Source of the DNA: an uncultured delta proteobacterium
Lineage (GTDB): Bacteria > Desulfobacterota > Binatia > JACPRU01
Reading direction: 5' to 3'
Length of the DNA stretch: 64,000 nucleotides
Assembly (NCBI GenBank): GCA_963745025.1
Contig: CAVUWD010000016.1
Span: 832,001 to 896,000, forward strand
Shown here piece after piece: positions 56,760 through 61,869 of the stretch. How positions within the stretch are numbered: the first letter of the stretch is position 1; each line of letters opens with the position of its first letter. The notes under the pieces were generated by a model. It searched no databases, was not told the origin of the DNA, and worked only from the letters and a program-made list of their open reading frames with translations. Both the position numbers and the translations under genes were made by a program.

Positions 56760-58148
56760 TTAGCGGCGACTCCGCGCGGCCGAGCCACCCAGGCCCTGCA
56801 CGTCCGGCGTGCGTGCCAGTGCCAGCTCGTCGGGCCGCGTGAAGACCGCCTCGATCGCCGCGTCGAGTCGCTGCTTTTCCTGCAGCAAAGGCGCGTGGCG
56901 ATATGCCGGCAGCAGCGCGAGCAGGTTGTCGATCATCGCCCGCAAACGGCGCGCGATTTGCAGCGAGTTGGCGCCACAGGCGCGGATCTCGGCGCACGCC
57001 ACCAGCACGAAGTCGTCCCAGTCGGGCGTCCGCTGGACCAGCCGCACGCGGCCGCTGGCATCGACCACTTCGTCCGAGTGCAGGCGCCGCTTGCCCGCCA
57101 CCCGCAGCAGTCGGTGGATCTGGTCGATGGCGAGCACAGCGGTCGTCGGGTCGTTGATCGCCGGCGACAGCGCCTTCAGGGCGATGTCGACCAGGATGCG
57201 GAACGCGAACACCGGGTCCTGCTCCATGGTCCTCTCGTCGCCGAAGGCCACCGCGGCACGCAGCCGGTGGTCGTCGATCGCTGCTGCGCTCGCGTATAGG
57301 CGGAATAGCGGCTCGTCCGGCGTGATGAAGTCGCCGATCTGCGGCACCAGTTCGATCACGCCATCGTGACGCCGCGCCTCCTCGATCAGGGACGCCAGCT
57401 CGACCGCCAACAGGATCTTCGACCGCCCGGTGTGCATGACTTCGCGGGCCGCCGCGGGCAGCTGCACGTGGGTGCGCGTGCGTTCGTCGTGATCGGCACT
57501 CGCGAGGCTCGGATACATCGCTTGCAGCACCTCGATGCCCTGGTTGCCCACGTGCGCCAGGATGCTCACCGGGCGCAGCATGCGAGCCGCGTAGTCGATC
57601 AGGAACAGGAACACCATCAGGCAGGCGACGCCGAGCACGCCGACCAACGTGGTCACCAGGTGCGGTACGGTGGTGCCGAGGCGATTGAGCCCGGCGACCG
57701 CCAGCAGCAGCGTGAAGACGAACAGGCCCACGCTGAAGCGCACCACGTTGTCGCGCAGCAGCGTGGTGGCGATCACACGCGGCGTCAGCTGGCCACCGGC
57801 GATCTGGATGGCCACCAGCAGCGAACCGAAGGTGAAGACGAGGAACGACAGCGCCAGCGTGATGACCGTCTGGTACAGCGCGGCCGCGCCCGACACTCCC
57901 AGCCCGGTCACGTTCCAGTCGAGATAGCTGTCGAGCCAGCGCATGAGCGGCGCCAGCAGGTAGATCAGCACGATCGCCACGATCGGCGTGACCCAGAGCG
58001 CCGAGCGCACGTAGCTGGCGGCCCGGTACATCCGGCCCCAGGTGAGCCGCGCCCTGATGAACTGCGCCACACCGTTGTCCGGCCGCTTCGCCGCCTGCGG
58101 CCGTGGCGTGCCGGACGAAGCTACGGTGGTCTGGCCGTGGGTTGTCAT
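56760..58148 (-). CDS. DUF2254 family membrane protein
   Basis: LLVAIQIAGGQLTPR, ERTMEQDP.FAFRILVDIALKALSPAINDPTTA. Confidence 0.9.
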   Translation of the reverse strand: MTTHGQTTVASSGTPRPQAAKRPDNGVAQFIRARLTWGRMYRAASYVRSALWVTPIVAIVLIYLLAPLMRWLDSYLDWNVTGLGVSGAAALYQTVITLALSFLVFTFGSLLVAIQIAGGQLTPRVIATTLLRDNVVRFSVGLFVFTLLLAVAGLNRLGTTVPHLVTTLVGVLGVACLMVFLFLIDYAARMLRPVSILAHVGNQGIEVLQAMYPSLASADHDERTRTHVQLPAAAREVMHTGRSKILLAVELASLIEEARRHDGVIELVPQIGDFITPDEPLFRLYASAAAIDDHRLRAAVAFGDERTMEQDPVFAFRILVDIALKALSPAINDPTTAVLAIDQIHRLLRVAGKRRLHSDEVVDASGRVRLVQRTPDWDDFVLVACAEIRACGANSLQIARRLRAMIDNLLALLPAYRHAPLLQEKQRLDAAIEAVFTRPDELALARTPDVQGLGGSAARSRR

Positions 58149-58226
58149 GTTTTCGCGAATTGACGTCCACCCCGAAGAGGACGGCAAGTCGAAACTAGAG
58201 TATCGTACCGACCTGTTTGTCAACTC

Positions 58227-59639
58227 CTAAGAAACAACGACAGTAGGGGTTTGTAATTGCACGAGTTGGAAGCCGAGAGAGGCGGCGCGCTTGGAGAGAG
58301 AGCGGACGGTGCGCTCGCGGAATTTGAGTTCGTAGTAATCGATGCCGAGATCTTTGTAGGGTTGGCGGTGCTTCCACATTCGGTAGAAGATGCGCGAGAG
58401 CTTGTGGGCGGTGGCGGTGATGGCCTTGGGGGGCCCGAGTCGGGCGCGCATGCGGCGATGAAAGGCACCCAGAGCGGTGTGGCTGTTGCCGGCAGACTGA
58501 GCGGCTCGGCGTAAGGCAGTGGCCACACGGTTGGAGGCTTTTCGGGTCTTGGAGCTTTTCACTTCTCCTCCGGTGACACGGTTGTCGGGGCACAGCGCAA
58601 GCCAGGAGGCGAAGTGCTTCTCGGAGGGAAACTTCGAGGGATCGAGGCCGACCTCGGAAAGGATGGTCTGCACGGTGAGGGCATCGAACCCCGTGATGGC
58701 GGTGAAGTCGACGCCTGAGATTCGATAGAGGTGGGTGCGCAGGTCGAAGCCAGCCTCGTTGCGCTGGGGCTTGCGGTGGGTGGCCTTGGGTTGTCCCAGG
58801 GGCGTGAGAGCAGGGTCGACTTGGGTGTCGAAGCCGCCCAGGCATTGCTCGATCCGCAGGTCGCAGTCGGCAATCATGCTGCGGTAGGTGTCATAGAGCG
58901 AGAGGCATTGCTCAAGTGCGAAGAGGTGCTCGGGTCGGTAGTCGCCCTGGAGGGATTGGGCGATGCGCTCGGAGGTGCTCTTGATGCGATGATCGCGCAT
59001 CGCGGCCAGAAGCTGTGGATCTCGCTCACCGGCGAGGATGGAGCGAATGATTCTCATGCCGCTGACGCCGGTGATGTCACTGATGACCTTGTGAAGCTGG
59101 ATGTTCATCTGGGTCAGGGCCTTCTGCATGCGCTGCACGTGAGCGGCCGCGTCGCGGATGAGAGTATCGCGCTGGCGGATGTAGCTGCGCAGCACGCAGG
59201 TCTGATCGTCGGGACGAAACGATCCCGAGAGTAGACCAAAGGTGTGCAGCTGCTGGAGCCACTGGCAGTCCTGGATGTCGCTCTTTCTGCCGGGCAGGTT
59301 TTTGACGTGGCGGGCGTTGACGAGCTTGACCTCGAAGCCGCGCGTCTCGAGGATCTGAAAGAGCGGGATCCAGTAGACTCCGGTGGATTCCATGACCACG
59401 GTGTCGACTCCGCACTGCTCGAGCCAGTCAGCCAGACGGTGCAAATCGGCGGTGAAGCACTCGAAGCGGCGCACGGGCTGCGGATCGCGGTCCTCGGGAA
59501 CCGCCACGTAGTGCTCGGCGGATCCGACATCGATGCCGGCGGCGTTGAGGTGCACAGCCTTGAGGCTCGCGGGCAACCCCGTTCCTCGCGCGACGCTCTT
59601 TCTCTTTCGGCCTGCGCCGGGTTTGATAGACTCCTTCAT
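58227..59639 (-). CDS. IS110-family transposase/recombinase (DEDD RuvC + Tnp20)
   Basis: AAGIDVG, VMESTGVYW, RKSDIQDCQWL and FPSEKHFASWLALCP..TGG; RBS AAGGAGG. Confidence 0.95.
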   Translation of the reverse strand: MKESIKPGAGRKRKSVARGTGLPASLKAVHLNAAGIDVGSAEHYVAVPEDRDPQPVRRFECFTADLHRLADWLEQCGVDTVVMESTGVYWIPLFQILETRGFEVKLVNARHVKNLPGRKSDIQDCQWLQQLHTFGLLSGSFRPDDQTCVLRSYIRQRDTLIRDAAAHVQRMQKALTQMNIQLHKVISDITGVSGMRIIRSILAGERDPQLLAAMRDHRIKSTSERIAQSLQGDYRPEHLFALEQCLSLYDTYRSMIADCDLRIEQCLGGFDTQVDPALTPLGQPKATHRKPQRNEAGFDLRTHLYRISGVDFTAITGFDALTVQTILSEVGLDPSKFPSEKHFASWLALCPDNRVTGGEVKSSKTRKASNRVATALRRAAQSAGNSHTALGAFHRRMRARLGPPKAITATAHKLSRIFYRMWKHRQPYKDLGIDYYELKFRERTVRSLSKRAASLGFQLVQLQTPTVVVS

Positions 59640-59640
59640 C

Positions 59641-59841
59641 GAGTACACCTCCTTGGAGTTGGGATGTGCTCGGGCCGGGTGGGTCGAAGGTGAGAAATCT
59701 CCTAAACGGGATAACCCTCCGTGCGAGGGAGGGCTTCACCAATGAAACAACCGCAAGCCCCCCGGAACCATGCTAACCCACGGGCGCGAAGGCACCATTG
59801 GCGCTACGGTCTTAGCTACCCGAGCACATCCCGGTGTACTC
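59641..59841 (-). ncRNA. Putative IS110 bridge RNA
   Basis: Closing stems GAGTACAC/GTGTACTC and GGGATGTGCTCGGG/CCCGAGCACATCCC enclose two hairpin arms; internal segments match both element junctions. Confidence 0.72.
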
Positions 59842-60159
59842 GACGCACACCGGCGCAGCAAAGACACTCAGGTTTCTTCCATCAACAACACCGCGCCTCG
59901 CGCGGGGTCAAATGCTAACCCGACGCTGCGGACTGCGTTCGACTACGCGGTCCAGCACGGCCAAACGAGCTCCGGCGCGGAGCGGGTAGTTCCTCGGGTG
60001 ACGGGAACTTGGGCAGAGAGGCTGGCCCAAACCGACATTGTACTTCCCGGCTGCAAGCGCTATTTGGGGTAGCTCAGCCCTGCGACGCGCGCGACCGCGT
60101 GTCGCGAGCTGAGAAGAAAAGGGAACTAGGTTCGTTCCCCACAACCTGCGAGGTGCCGT

Positions 60160-61773
60160 ATGTCAATCCGATCCGACGACGACGCTCCCATCCTCGAACC
60201 AGAGCTGATGTCCGCGGAGACCCCGGCGGGTATCGACCGCCGGAGCTTCATCGTGCGGTCCGCCATGATCGGCTCTGTGGCTGTCCTGTCGGGCAGCAAG
60301 GCTGCGACCGCGAAGGAGACCGCCGACCAGGCCGCTTCCGCACCTCCCGTTCAACCGCGCGTCAAGCTCTCCCCCGACCTCGAGGTCGTGAAGAAGTCCA
60401 AGGGGCCGGTGATGACCACCGTCGAGGAGTTCTACAAGGTGGGCCCCGGACCGTCGAGCTCGCACACCATCGGGCCGATGCGGATCACCTACGACTTCTA
60501 CCAGCGCTGCACGAAGCTGCCGCCGGACCAGCTCGCCAAGGCCACCGCACTCACGCGTCCATCTGTACGGCAGCCTGAGCGCCACCGGCAAAGGACACGG
60601 CACCGAGCGCGCCGCGCTCGCCGGCATCATCGGCAAGGAGCCGGCGACGATCGATCCGCTGTTCCTCGACGAGATGGCCGCCAAGCCCGACCAGACGTTT
60701 CCGGTGACAGCTCGGCAGCGCCACCTTCAACGCCTCGCTCAAGGACATCATCTACGACGCGCCCAAGGGCGACTTCCCGCACCCCAACACGATGACGTGC
60801 AAGCTGATGGCCGGCGAGACCGTGCTGCTCGAGCAGGAGTACTACTCGGTCGGCGGCGGGTTCATCGAGTGGAAGGGCTACCAGCCGCCGAAGAAGGGCC
60901 AGCCGAAATACCCCTACTCCACGATGAAGGAGCTGCAGGAGCACGCCGCGAAGAACAAGCTCACCATCGCCCAGGTCGCGATGGCCAACGAGGTGGCGGT
61001 CTCCGGCAAGACCGAAGCGGAGATCAACGCCTTCCTCGACAAGATCTCGACCGCGATGGTGAACATCGTGAAGTCGGGGCTCGCCGCGCCGCGAATCCAC
61101 GCTCCCCGGGCCGATCAAGCTCAAGACCAAGGCCGGCGACGTCTACAAGCGGGCGCAGGACGACAAGTACGCAGCGCAGCGCGGGGTCGGCGTGGTTTCC
61201 GCCTACGCGCTGGCCGGCTCGGAGGAGAACGCCCGCGGCCACCTGGTTGTCACCGCCCCCACGGGCGGCTCGGCCGGCGTCATGCCGGCCATCGTGTACG
61301 TTCTCGGCGAGGGCGGCCGCAAGCTGCCGCAGGAGAAGATCCGCGAAGGCCTGCTGGCCGCCGCCGTGATCGGCTACCTCTGCAAGCACAACGCGACGCT
61401 CGCCGGCGCCGAGGGCGGCTGCCAGGCGGAGATCGGCGTGGCGTCCGCCATGGGCGCGGCGCTGATCGCCCAGGCGCACGACTTCGACCATCAGGTGATC
61501 GCCAACGCCGCCGAGTCGGCGCTCGAGCACCATCTCGGCATGACCTGCGACCCGGTCGCCGGCTACGTGCAGGTGCCCTGCATCGAGCGCTGCGCCTACG
61601 GCGCAGTCAAGGCGTGGACCGGCTTCATGATCGCCAGCAACGAGATCCCAGCCAATCGCCGCGTCGACTTCGATACGACGGTCGTCGCGATGGCGCTCAC
61701 GGCCAAGGAGATGAACTCGAAGTACAAGGAGACTTCCGAAGGCGGTCTGGCCGTCTCCGTGGTGCTCTGTTAG
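60160..61773 (+). CDS. sdaA: Fe-S-dependent L-serine ammonia-lyase with Tat-type N-terminal extension (three frameshifts)
   Basis: GPGPSSSHTIGPM, YGSLSATGKGHGT, YYSVGGGF, EENA.G..VTAPT, GAEGGCQAEIG and HHLGMTCDPVAGYVQVPCIER; N-terminal DRRSFI + hydrophobic stretch. Confidence 0.88.
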
Positions 61774-61869
61774 GCCCACTAGCGAGGAGCGAGCAATCCC
61801 GGAGGCGAACCCGTTCCACGTGAGCGGCGCCGCGAGGCGTGGTGCTCTTCCGGGTTGGCACGGAGGGAC

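What the first reader, a model, noticed from the sequence alone, without database searches (positions are those of the whole stretch)
58219..59921. Intact IS110 whose non-coding RNA contains readable matches to both of its junctions
Seen: a ~200-nt region upstream of the recombinase is closed by long stems. Inside it, ATGCTAACCC (59770-59779) is identical to the flank just outside the element (59912-59921), and CTCCTAA (59699-59705) is identical to the element's opposite end (58224-58230). GTCAA precedes both junctions. Established: IS110 bridge RNAs carry target- and donor-binding loops. The partner guide halves match only weakly by eye and the shared junction sequence is 5 bp, so this subgroup may use a variant architecture. 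It is a ready candidate programmable recombinase with a predicted target of roughly TTTGTCAA/ATGCTAACCC.
Basis: partly seen in the sequence, partly recalled or inferred. Interest (0 to 1): 0.7.

Follow-up and report, generated by a model that had tools for sequence, protein, structure and literature searches.

The report
IS110 insertion sequence with bridge RNA
This is an intact, recently active IS110-family insertion sequence whose upstream non-coding RNA carries guide segments matching its own end and its insertion site, but with the two guide halves in the opposite order to the well-studied IS621.

Summary
The boundaries, the "5-bp shared junction" and the predicted target are wrong.

**Element.** It is 1691 bp (58226-59916 with one core copy), with its transposase on the minus strand. 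It sits at a CT core on the + strand, which is AG in the transposase sense. Three related genomes carry the empty site TTTGTCAA-CT-AACC.

**Copies.** The genome holds three more full-length copies (98-100% identical), one copy with an internal deletion and one fragment.

The 10-mer is five target bases, the core and the first three bases of the element. The 7-mer is the element's last five bases plus the core.

**Covariation.**
- In 40 related RNA types, a locus's own donor guide finds its right end in 27 of 30 (other guides 18 of 480).
- Its own target guide finds the left flank in 21 of 36 (other guides 16 of 1044).

**RNA structure.** Three helices are 96% paired, with compensatory changes.

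[quoted passage not shown] This is the reverse of IS621 and ISEc21, and it is the order reported for IS1111 seekRNAs.

**Not found.** No guide for the element's first bases, and no RNA evidence.

The parts
58216..58223 (-). Right target (RT) of this copy: TTGACAAA in the transposase sense.
   Evidence: Flank continues in the empty sites of G001, G002 and G006.
58224..58225 (.). Core dinucleotide copy at the element's right end (CT on +, AG in the transposase sense).
   Evidence: A single CT stands in the three empty sites. AG is at both ends in the related families examined.
58226..59914 (-). Body of the insertion sequence (1689 bp; 1691 bp with one core copy).
   Evidence: Block shared by the own-genome copies, trimmed by the empty sites.
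58227..59639 (-). IS110-family recombinase gene, 470 aa from the ATG at 59639. Its stop codon TAG lies inside the donor end TTAGG.
   Evidence: ORF. Pfam PF01548 at residues 37-182 and PF02371 at 316-388. NF033542 at 276 bits. Thr aligns with IS621 Ser241.
58229..58235 (-). Right arm of a subterminal inverted repeat (GTTTCTT in the transposase sense).
   Evidence: Reverse complement of 59872-59878. Covaries in relatives: 10 of 14 types against 2 of 42 unrelated arms.
59640..59674 (-). 3' strand of the long closing stem (59674-59661 and 59649-59640). It covers the Shine-Dalgarno region.
   Evidence: Minimum-energy fold. A closing stem of 15 or more pairs appears in the folds of 10 of 17 families.
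59675..59683 (-). 3' strand of the stem that closes the donor module (CCCACCCGG).
   Evidence: Folds (10 or more pairs in 10 of 17 families). Compensatory by eye in L034, L038 and L070.
59699..59705 (-). Donor guide UUAGG plus core AG, on the 3' side of the donor loop.
   Evidence: Identical to the element's last 5 bases plus core. Own guide finds the right end in 27 of 30 RNA types against 18 of 480 for other guides. Earlier test: 15 of 16 against 2 of 128.
59707..59741 (-). Inner stem-loop of the donor module (UGGUGAAGCCC...GGGUUAUCCCG).
   Evidence: 9 pairs, 6 of them with changes on both sides, 94% paired.
59742..59757 (-). 5' side of the donor loop. Its function is unresolved.
   Evidence: No complementarity to the element's first bases beyond that of other families' guides, in any register.
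59758..59765 (-). 5' strand of the stem that closes the donor module (CCGGGGGG).
59766..59770 (-). 3' strand of the outer stem of the target module (UGGUU).
   Evidence: Pairs with 59811-59807; 96.5% of cells paired.
59771..59772 (-). CA after the core, equivalent to a handshake guide.
   Evidence: Equals the first two bases of the element in 18 of 23 RNA types, including covarying CC, CT and TG.
59773..59779 (-). Target guide GGGUU plus core AG, on the 3' side of the target loop.
   Evidence: Identical to the left flank plus core of this copy. Own guide found upstream in 21 of 36 RNA types against 16 of 1044. Earlier test: 12 of 16 against 2 of 224.
59781..59797 (-). Inner stem-loop of the target module (UGGUGCC UUCG CGCCCG).
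   Evidence: 5 pairs, 100% paired; one pair shows CG in 13, UA in 3 and UG in 1 sequence.
59798..59806 (-). 5' side of the target loop, UAGCGCCAA. It is the antisense guide for core G plus the right target.
   Evidence: Family-wide complementarity to the right target in register 0: 3.67 of 7 against 2.53 +/- 0.20 for shuffled guides, 0 of 5000 shuffles as high. This genome's own sites match it poorly.
59807..59811 (-). 5' strand of the outer stem of the target module (GACCG).
59819..59842 (-). 5' strand of the long closing stem.
59872..59878 (-). Left arm of the subterminal inverted repeat (AAGAAAC).
59891..59905 (-). G+C-rich hairpin next to the left end (CCGCGCG AGG CGCGG).
   Evidence: A hairpin stands at this place in relatives.
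59915..59916 (.). Core dinucleotide copy at the element's left end (CT on +, AG in the transposase sense).
59917..59921 (-). Left target (LT) of this copy: GGGTT in the transposase sense.
   Evidence: Present in the empty sites as AACC (G006, G001) or AAGC (G002). GTT is shared by all 5 own copies.

Best explanation
58224-59916 is an intact IS110-family insertion sequence on the minus strand. It most likely moves by bridge-RNA-guided recombination.

**The RNA.** Its left end, about 59914 to 59650, encodes a structured RNA with two modules inside one long closing stem. Each module is an internal loop around a conserved stem-loop (UGGUG...CCCG).

**Target module.**
- The 3' side (GGGUU-AG) has the sense of the left flank plus core, so it would pair with the bottom strand.
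- The CA that follows matches the element's first two bases, as a handshake guide would.
- The 5' side (UAGCGC-C) is antisense to core G plus the right flank.

**Donor module.** The 3' side (UUAGG-AG) has the sense of the element's last five bases plus core.

**Recombination.** It takes place at the 2-bp core, AG in the transposase sense and CT on the + strand. The core ends up on both sides of the element. The enzyme is a DEDD recombinase with Thr at the nucleophile position.

**Guide order.** Compared with IS621, the guide halves sit on the opposite sides of each loop. This is the same as saying that the recombination site has the opposite polarity relative to the RNA and transposase genes.

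**Shown here:** copies, boundaries, empty sites, RNA helices, and covariation of three guide segments and the CA dinucleotide.

**Inferred:** that the RNA is made, that it binds the recombinase, the circular intermediate, and the chemistry.
For: **Family membership**
- Pfam PF01548 (5.9e-22) and PF02371 (5.6e-11).
- NCBIfam NF033542, 'IS110 family RNA-guided transposase', 276 bits against a cut-off of 140.
- Thr aligns with the IS621 nucleophile Ser.

**Recent activity**
- The own genome gives 7 matches: the window copy, 3 further full-length copies (100%, 1 mismatch, 98.3%), 1 copy with an internal deletion (2 matches) and 1 fragment.

**Boundaries and core**
- Of 30 relatives searched, 6 had any match. 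The 3 that hold both flanks have them adjacent, with a single CT.

**RNA structure**
- 19 pairs in 3 helices on 17 families are 96.3% paired (88.4% shuffled; 32-46% when partners are slid).
- 29 cells have changes on both sides, against 8.4 in shuffles.
- Three G.U or U.G pairs are invariant in 17 of 17 sequences, which fixes the RNA strand.
- A covariance model finds the RNA in 49 of 56 sources, always on the transposase strand.

**Guides**
- Donor guide: own guide finds its site in 27 of 30 types; other guides in 18 of 480.
- Target guide: own guide in 21 of 36; other guides in 16 of 1044.
- CA dinucleotide: identical to the element's first two bases in 18 of 23, with CC, CT and TG covarying.
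- 5' side against the right target: 3.67 of 7 against 2.53 +/- 0.20, with 0 of 5000 shuffles as high (all; earlier versions).

**Guide order in print**
- IS621: LTG at A50-U58 lies 5' of RTG at G77-G80 (PMC11208158, passages).
- IS110-type ISEc21 has the bottom-strand match first; IS1111 types have the top-strand match first (PMC11187229, abstract and passages).
Against: - No RNA evidence: no listed run is RNA, and Rfam has no match.
- No guide for the element's first bases was found.
- This genome's own sites agree with the 5'-side guide at only 1-3 of 8 positions in register 0. Four of the five copies were scored, because the copy with the internal deletion fell outside the script's search window.
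- The genome holds no perfect predicted target. Insertion here seems to need only the left half-site.
- No sigma-70-like promoter is evident, and none is created by the circle junction in 7 of 8 families.
- Junctions for the larger tests were located by exact guide matches. Only the comparison of own against other guides is free of circularity.
- Related families are not independent.
Confidence: 0.85

Rival explanations
1. One reading: the element ends at 59911, GTCAA is a 5-bp sequence shared by both junctions, and the target is TTTGTCAA/ATGCTAACCC.
For: GTCAA does stand at 58219-58223 and 59907-59911.
Against: - All 5 own copies share sequence up to 59919.
- The empty sites of 3 relatives read TCAA-CT-AA[C/G]C with no ATG, so ATG (59912-14) belongs to the element and the shared junction is CT.
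- Related families have AG at both ends and no 5-bp repeat.
Confidence: 0.02
2. The structured leader is only a translational control element. It would be a 5' UTR that hides the ribosome-binding site, as described for ISPpu9. On this view the matches to the ends are DNA-level binding sites or subterminal repeats for the protein, not RNA guides.
For: - The closing stem pairs with the Shine-Dalgarno region up to 59640.
- ISPpu9 has a long 5' UTR that inhibits translation (PMC12288879, passages).
- A covarying inverted repeat does bracket the donor site.
Against: - The target guide covaries with flanking host DNA, which is not part of the element: 21 of 36 against 16 of 1044.
- The guides sit in internal loops of helices kept by compensatory changes and by G.U pairs, which only make sense in RNA.
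- The protein belongs to the family named RNA-guided.
- Both roles can coexist.
Confidence: 0.07
3. The matches are chance, or the element is a dead relic.
For: The 7-mer alone is at chance level in the window: 2 found against 2.16 expected.
Against: - The 10-mer occurs twice against 0.06 expected.
- Own guides find their sites far more often than other guides do.
- There are two further copies with 0 or 1 difference, and the 470-aa frame is intact.
Confidence: 0.02

Closest known systems
IS621 and its bridge RNA (Durrant et al. 2024, PMC11208160; Hiraizumi et al. 2024, PMC11208158; passages read)
   Same: - DEDD recombinase with a C-terminal Ser/Thr domain.
- RNA encoded in the left end, upstream of the gene.
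- Two loop modules, one for the target and one for the donor.
- Each guide includes the 2-bp core.
- Two bases after the core match the other DNA, like handshake guides.
- The core is duplicated at both ends.
   Different: - The protein is distant: phmmer E 2.2e-4, 470 aa against 326 aa.
- The core is AG in the transposase sense, not CT.
- The same-sense guides lie on the 3' side of the loops, not the 5' side.
- The strongest guide is 5+2 nt on the 3' side.
- No guide for the element's first bases was found.
- A 7-9 bp inverted repeat brackets the donor site.
- No junction promoter is seen.
ISEc21 seekRNA (IS110 type; Siddiquee et al. 2024, PMC11187229; abstract and passages read)
   Same: The non-coding region lies upstream of the transposase gene. 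Short segments match both strands of the target.
   Different: In ISEc21 the bottom-strand match comes first and the top-strand match is 3' of it. Here the order is the reverse.
IS1111-type seekRNAs (ISEc11, ISKpn4, ISPst6, ISPa11; PMC11187229)
   Same: - The top-strand complement lies 5' of the bottom-strand match.
- Subterminal inverted repeats are present.
- The nucleophile is Ser or Thr.
   Different: - There the non-coding region is downstream of the gene.
- The transposases are 330-350 aa.
- The inverted repeats lie 7 and 3 bp from the ends. Here the left arm lies about 31-43 nt inside the element.
ISPpu9 of Pseudomonas putida KT2440 (PMC12288879; passages read)
   Same: - IS110 group.
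- Invariant AG at both ends, where recombination occurs.
- Long structured 5' leader.
- A palindrome close to the left end.
- No promoter made by the circle junction.
   Different: - Sequence relatedness was not tested, because no ISPpu9 sequence was at hand.
- The passages I read do not map its guides.
- ISPpu9 has associated small RNAs (Asr9, Ssr9), which I did not look for here.

Membership tests
IS110 family (DEDD recombinase insertion sequences) | N-terminal DEDD/RuvC-like domain (PF01548) | tested here: met
   E 5.9e-22 at residues 37-182. The GID, ESTG and KSDxxD motifs are visible in the translation.
IS110 family (DEDD recombinase insertion sequences) | C-terminal Transposase_20 domain with a conserved Ser/Thr-Gly | tested here: met
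   PF02371 at E 5.6e-11. ALCPDNRVTG aligns with the IS621 motif GLTPRRYESG. Among relatives the position is S in 39 and T in 28 of 78 frames, with 11 lacking the motif.
IS110 family (DEDD recombinase insertion sequences) | Scores over NCBI's family cut-off | tested here: met
   NF033542 at 276.3 bits against a cut-off of 140.
IS110 family (DEDD recombinase insertion sequences) | No terminal inverted repeats, and no target duplication beyond one shared core | tested here: met
   The empty sites hold a single CT. The ends are not inverted repeats.
Bridge RNA of the IS621 type | Two internal loops, one covarying with the target and one with the donor | tested here: met
Bridge RNA of the IS621 type | [quoted passage not shown] | tested here: not met
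   Here the same-sense guides are on the 3' side and the antisense target guide on the 5' side. The IS621 order is taken from PMC11208158.
Bridge RNA of the IS621 type | CT core in the sense of the RNA and recombinase | tested here: not met
   AG in the transposase sense in this element and in all 42 loci that matched both guide motifs. By eye it is AC in Chloroflexi relatives and AA in the E. coli relative. The first base, A, is constant.
Bridge RNA of the IS621 type | A guide that reads the right donor (the element's first bases) | tested here: inconclusive
   No signal above other families' guides in any register, and none in a covariation matrix of 22 types.
Bridge RNA of the IS621 type | The RNA is expressed and bound by the recombinase | not testable with these tools
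   No RNA run is listed.
IS1111 group | Long non-coding region downstream of the transposase gene | tested here: not met
   The RNA lies upstream. The stop codon lies inside the last 8 bases of the element.
IS1111 group | Subterminal inverted repeats close to both ends | tested here: inconclusive
   A covarying 7-9 bp repeat exists (10 of 14 against 2 of 42). Its left arm lies about 31-43 nt inside the element, not 7 bp.
IS1111 group | Top-strand complement 5' of the bottom-strand match in the RNA | tested here: met
   against PMC11187229.
ISPpu9-like elements | Invariant AG at both ends, a long structured leader and a palindrome near the left end | tested here: met
   against PMC12288879.
ISPpu9-like elements | Transposase sequence related to that of ISPpu9 | not tested
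   No ISPpu9 sequence was available in the collections I could reach.

The most novel reading that the evidence does not exclude
This element belongs to a widespread but uncharacterised branch of the IS110 family. Its members have transposases of roughly 430-470 aa and were seen here in Binatia, Acidobacteriota, Chloroflexota, Verrucomicrobiota, Wolbachia and Enterobacteriaceae.

The branch would be an intermediate between the IS110 and IS1111 types:
- The RNA sits upstream of the gene, as in IS621.
- The polarity of the recombination site relative to the RNA is that of IS1111.
- The 7-nt guide on the 3' side is the main determinant of the insertion site.
- One side of the donor is marked not by an RNA guide but by a covarying subterminal inverted repeat.

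If true, where the RNA gene sits and which way the guides face are separable traits. The 'IS110 type' order reported from IS621 and ISEc21 would then not be a family rule.
Probability: 0.35. Interest if true: 0.6.

Novelty: new variant of a known kind. Interest (0 to 1): 0.45.

Why it matters
- **Correcting the lead.** Bridge recombinases are being developed as programmable genome-writing tools from very few characterised examples (IS621, ISCro4, ISEc21 and a few IS1111 types).
- **Sharpening the lead.** This branch keeps the known logic but places the guides on the other sides of the loops, uses an A-first core (AG, with AC and AA in relatives), and seems to insert with little help from the second target guide.
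- **Design rules.** The guide order bears on which loop side to reprogram. The weak second guide bears on off-target expectations.
- **Evolution.** It bears on how the IS110 and IS1111 types relate.
- **A tractable relative.** A 51%-identical relative occurs full-length in 74 of 5426 E. coli genomes, so the branch could be tested in a laboratory host.
- **Ordinary aspect.** The element itself is an ordinary mobile element for its host.

Tried and rejected
**Steps that gave nothing**
- Rfam gave no match at E up to 1 over 57500-60700.
- Sequencing runs: 20 runs listed, no RNA holder listed.
- Contigs of X1, X2, X3 and X11 were laid on 57900-60250. No contig joins across the element and none shows a circle junction. 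Contigs start at 58224 and stop at 59919/59920, as assemblies do at repeats. One loose end repeats the flank of another own copy.

**Guide for the element's first bases**
- The 5' side of the donor loop against the first bases scored the same for own and other guides in registers -2 to +11.
- A column-by-position covariation matrix of 22 and 31 types showed nothing new. Its same-sense signals are circular, because junctions were found through the guides.
- The 8-nt identity GTTGTTTC between 59751-59744 and the right end is not kept in relatives. I treat it as chance.

**Promoters**
- No sigma-70-like site was found in 58100-60050.
- Joined ends computed in a script gave no junction-specific promoter in 7 of 8 families.

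**Predicted cognate target**
- GGGTTAG followed by GCGCT occurs 0 times in the own genome.
- One search used a wrong coordinate for the 5'-side guide, and its target scan should be ignored.

**Single-sequence folds**
- In one search the counters for the two target-module stems were set on wrong ranges and read zero. Only the counts for the closing stem and the donor-module stem are used.

**Controls from a CT-core IS110 element that I could analyse myself**
- A Streptomyces plasmid element had only a 77% second copy.
- Two E. coli chromosomes held no further family member over the cut-off. A third was not searched.
- The comparison with IS621, ISEc21 and the IS1111 types therefore rests on the papers' text.

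**Literature**
- I found no description of a left-end RNA with this guide order in searches, or in the passages read.
- Figures and supplements were not visible. Extended Data Fig. 10c of PMC11208160, which shows guides of six elements, and the papers' supplementary tables may already hold such a case.
- The preprint 10.64898/2026.08.31.748434 (half-match recombination) was seen only as a search listing with the start of its abstract.
Full report
**What is there.** The minus strand of 58227-59639 encodes a 470-aa protein. It starts at the ATG eight bases after AAGGAGG; the listed frame begins three codons earlier at a GTG. It carries the two domains of IS110-family recombinases, PF01548 and PF02371. 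It scores 276 bits on NCBI's model 'IS110 family RNA-guided transposase', whose cut-off is 140. It is only distantly like IS621, the sole solved relative (E 2.2e-4). In that alignment a threonine stands where IS621 has its nucleophilic serine. Among relatives this position is S in 39 and T in 28 of 78 frames read, and 11 lacked the motif.

**Copies and boundaries.** The window's own genome gives 7 matches to the region. They are this copy, three further full-length copies (100%, one mismatch, 98.3% with gaps), one copy with a 364-bp internal deletion (counted as two matches) and a 256-nt fragment at a contig end. The block shared by the copies runs from 58224 to 59919, and the flanks beyond it differ.

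Thirty relatives of the genome were searched with the whole region, and six had any match. Three (G001, G002, G006) hold both flanks side by side without the element. They read TTTGTCAA-CT-AACCGG, TTCTCAA-CT-AACCAG and GCTCAA-CT-AAGCAG.

So the element is 1691 bp including one CT. CT is the core that ends up on both sides. AAC at 59917-19 is target sequence that all five copies share because it is selected, not because it belongs to the element. In the transposase sense the layout is: left target GGGTT, core AG, element CATTTGACC...GTTTCTTAGG, core AG, right target TTGACAAA.

All the identities are real, and the long closing stem is real.
- The 10-mer is five target bases, the core and the first three bases of the element.
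- The 7-mer is the last five bases of the element plus the core.
- GTCAA is target on one side and element on the other. It is not a junction repeat.

**Relatives.** A scan of one genome per species found 162 stretches encoding relatives, of which the best 80 were kept. They are 44-77% identical and come from many phyla, several with multiple copies. Comparing copies within genomes gave ends for six families. All have AG at both ends, and the element starts with CA.

In each of the six families the leader holds two frames:
- CCCG-N-[5 nt]-AG-CAUGG, whose five bases equal the left flank in all six.
- CCCG-N-[5 nt]-AG-AUU, whose five bases equal the element's last five bases in the families where both could be read. 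The Verrucomicrobia family agreed once its true end was located.

One Acidobacteriota family sits in a palindromic repeat. That settles that the last AG of TTAGGAG, not the AG of TTAG, is the core.

**Tests free of circularity.** Both frames were found by pattern in 42 of 81 sources, giving 19 distinct leader types.
- A locus's own donor guide plus AG lay just after its gene in 15 of 16 types; other families' guides did so in 2 of 128.
- Its own target guide plus AG lay 60-260 nt upstream in 12 of 16; others in 2 of 224.

A covariance model was built from 17 families. It found the RNA in 49 of 56 sources, always on the transposase strand and upstream of the gene unless it belonged to a neighbouring copy. 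Twenty-seven further loci, which are extra copies from the same genomes, were not sent. On its alignment there are 40 distinct RNA types:
- Donor guide: 27 of 30 against 18 of 480.
- Target guide: 21 of 36 against 16 of 1044.

**Structure.** The consensus fold and a pair count on 17 families support three helices:
- an outer stem of the target module (GACCG with UGGUY);
- its inner stem-loop (UGG-GC with GC-CCG);
- the inner stem-loop of the donor module.

Together these are 19 pairs, 96.3% paired against 88.4% in shuffles and 32-46% when partners are slid. Twenty-nine cells have changes on both sides against 8.4. Three G.U or U.G pairs are invariant in 17 of 17 sequences. They would be mismatches on the other strand, so the RNA has the sense of the transposase.

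A stem closing the donor module and a long stem closing both modules appear in the minimum-energy folds of 10 of 17 families each. They look compensatory by eye. In this element the long stem also covers the ribosome-binding site.

**The other guide halves.** The 5' side of the target loop is nine bases ending C-A-N. Read as antisense to core G plus the right target, it fits its own sites better than shuffled guides do.
- 3.84 of 8 against 2.57 +/- 0.26, with 0 of 5000 shuffles as high, on 36 sites and 15 guides.
- 3.67 of 7 against 2.53 +/- 0.20, with 0 of 5000 as high, on 30 types.
- The clearest cases are Wolbachia, three Acidobacteriota groups, L059 and L062.

The two bases after the core in the target loop equal the element's first two bases in 18 of 23 types. 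These include the covarying pairs CC, CT and TG. That is what a handshake guide does in IS621 (PMC11208158, passages). For the donor loop's 5' side I found no partner in the element's first bases.

**How it differs from IS621.**
- In IS621 the guide with the sense of the DNA (LTG, A50-U58) lies 5' of the stem-loop, and the antisense guide (RTG, G77-G80) lies 3' (PMC11208158; PMC11208160).
- Here it is the reverse in both loops.
- Siddiquee et al. report bottom-then-top for the IS110-type ISEc21 and top-then-bottom for four IS1111-type elements (PMC11187229). This element has the IS1111 order, but its RNA is upstream of the gene, as in the IS110 type.

Put another way, the recombination site is turned round relative to the genes. 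On the other strand the core reads CT, the target loop has the IS621 layout, and CA is the handshake guide. By eye, relatives have AC (Chloroflexi) and AA (E. coli relative). The first base A, which is T on the other strand, is therefore constant. This matches the near-invariant second T of the IS621 core. This last step is inference.

**Further features.**
- A 7-9 bp inverted repeat brackets the donor site. Its right arm lies at -12 to -6 from the end including the core (-14 to -6 in the 9-bp Wolbachia case). Its left arm starts 33-39 nt from the first base of the left core copy.
- The repeat covaries: AAGAAAC/GTTTCTT, AAGGAAC/GTTCCTT, GACTAAC/GTTAGTC. The exact 7-mer was found in 10 of 14 types, against 2 of 42 for unrelated arms.
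- AG ends, a structured leader, a palindrome near the left end and the lack of a junction promoter are all reported for ISPpu9 (PMC12288879). The same features are seen here. Whether ISPpu9 is a sequence relative was not tested.

**Target choice in this genome.**
- All five copies share GTT-AG on the left.
- Their right targets (TTGAC, GTTGG, GCCGC, CGTTC, ATGGC) do not fit the GCGCT predicted from the 5'-side guide.
- No perfect predicted site exists in the genome.
- The element therefore seems to insert here on a left half-site. Four of eight right targets in this genome and the Binatia relative begin (G)TTG, which I cannot explain.

**Verdict.** This is a real, intact and recently active IS110-family element with a bridge RNA. 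The guide order and the core mark a variant of the known system. I did not find that variant described in the text I could search and read, but I could not see figures or supplements.

Noticed in passing
L115:441-2043; L116:301-1903; L118: A 51%-identical relative on a Klebsiella plasmid and in E. coli sits inside IS3-family transposase genes, at the A-rich stretch ATATTAAAAAAG. By eye its core is AA. Its donor loop reads UCAGG-AA-GG, matching its right end, core and right target. Newer RefSeq annotation calls it 'IS110 family RNA-guided transposase'. Full-length copies occur in 74 of 5426 E. coli genomes.
   Followed up: partly
L074 and L075, about 1100-1390: In two Verrucomicrobia genomes the target guide (AGAGA-AG) of one element type equals the right end of a related element type (L070). 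L074 sits directly behind such an end. An IS110 element here targets the end of another.
   Followed up: no
L083, L085, L086: The most distant relatives (44-46% identity, Chloroflexi) were missed by the covariance model. By eye they have the same loop layout with core AC and a 12-nt conserved right target.
   Followed up: partly
L002 and L003 right flanks; run X1 loose end at 59920: Two other own copies, and one further site seen in a metagenome contig, lie next to a similar repeat (GGTTGGAGCGG..CCC). This suggests a repeated host sequence as a favoured site.
   Followed up: no
window 58216-58223 and 59907-59914: The right target of this copy (TTGAC...) resembles bases 4-8 of the element's left end (CATTTGAC). 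The ISPpu9 paper notes a similar likeness between its right target and a palindrome near its left end.
   Followed up: no
window 60160-61830, + strand: The gene downstream of the element begins like an L-serine dehydratase; that name is recalled from the motif GPGPSSSHTIGPM and comes from no call. It seems to continue in other reading frames in the ORF list. This could be frameshifts or just overlapping high-GC frames.
   Followed up: no
G000:C8:103156-104488 and G000:C12:115256-116956: Two of the own copies are damaged. One has a 364-bp internal deletion. The other is 98.3% identical with gaps, has a frame of only 286 aa, and lies at a contig end.
   Followed up: partly
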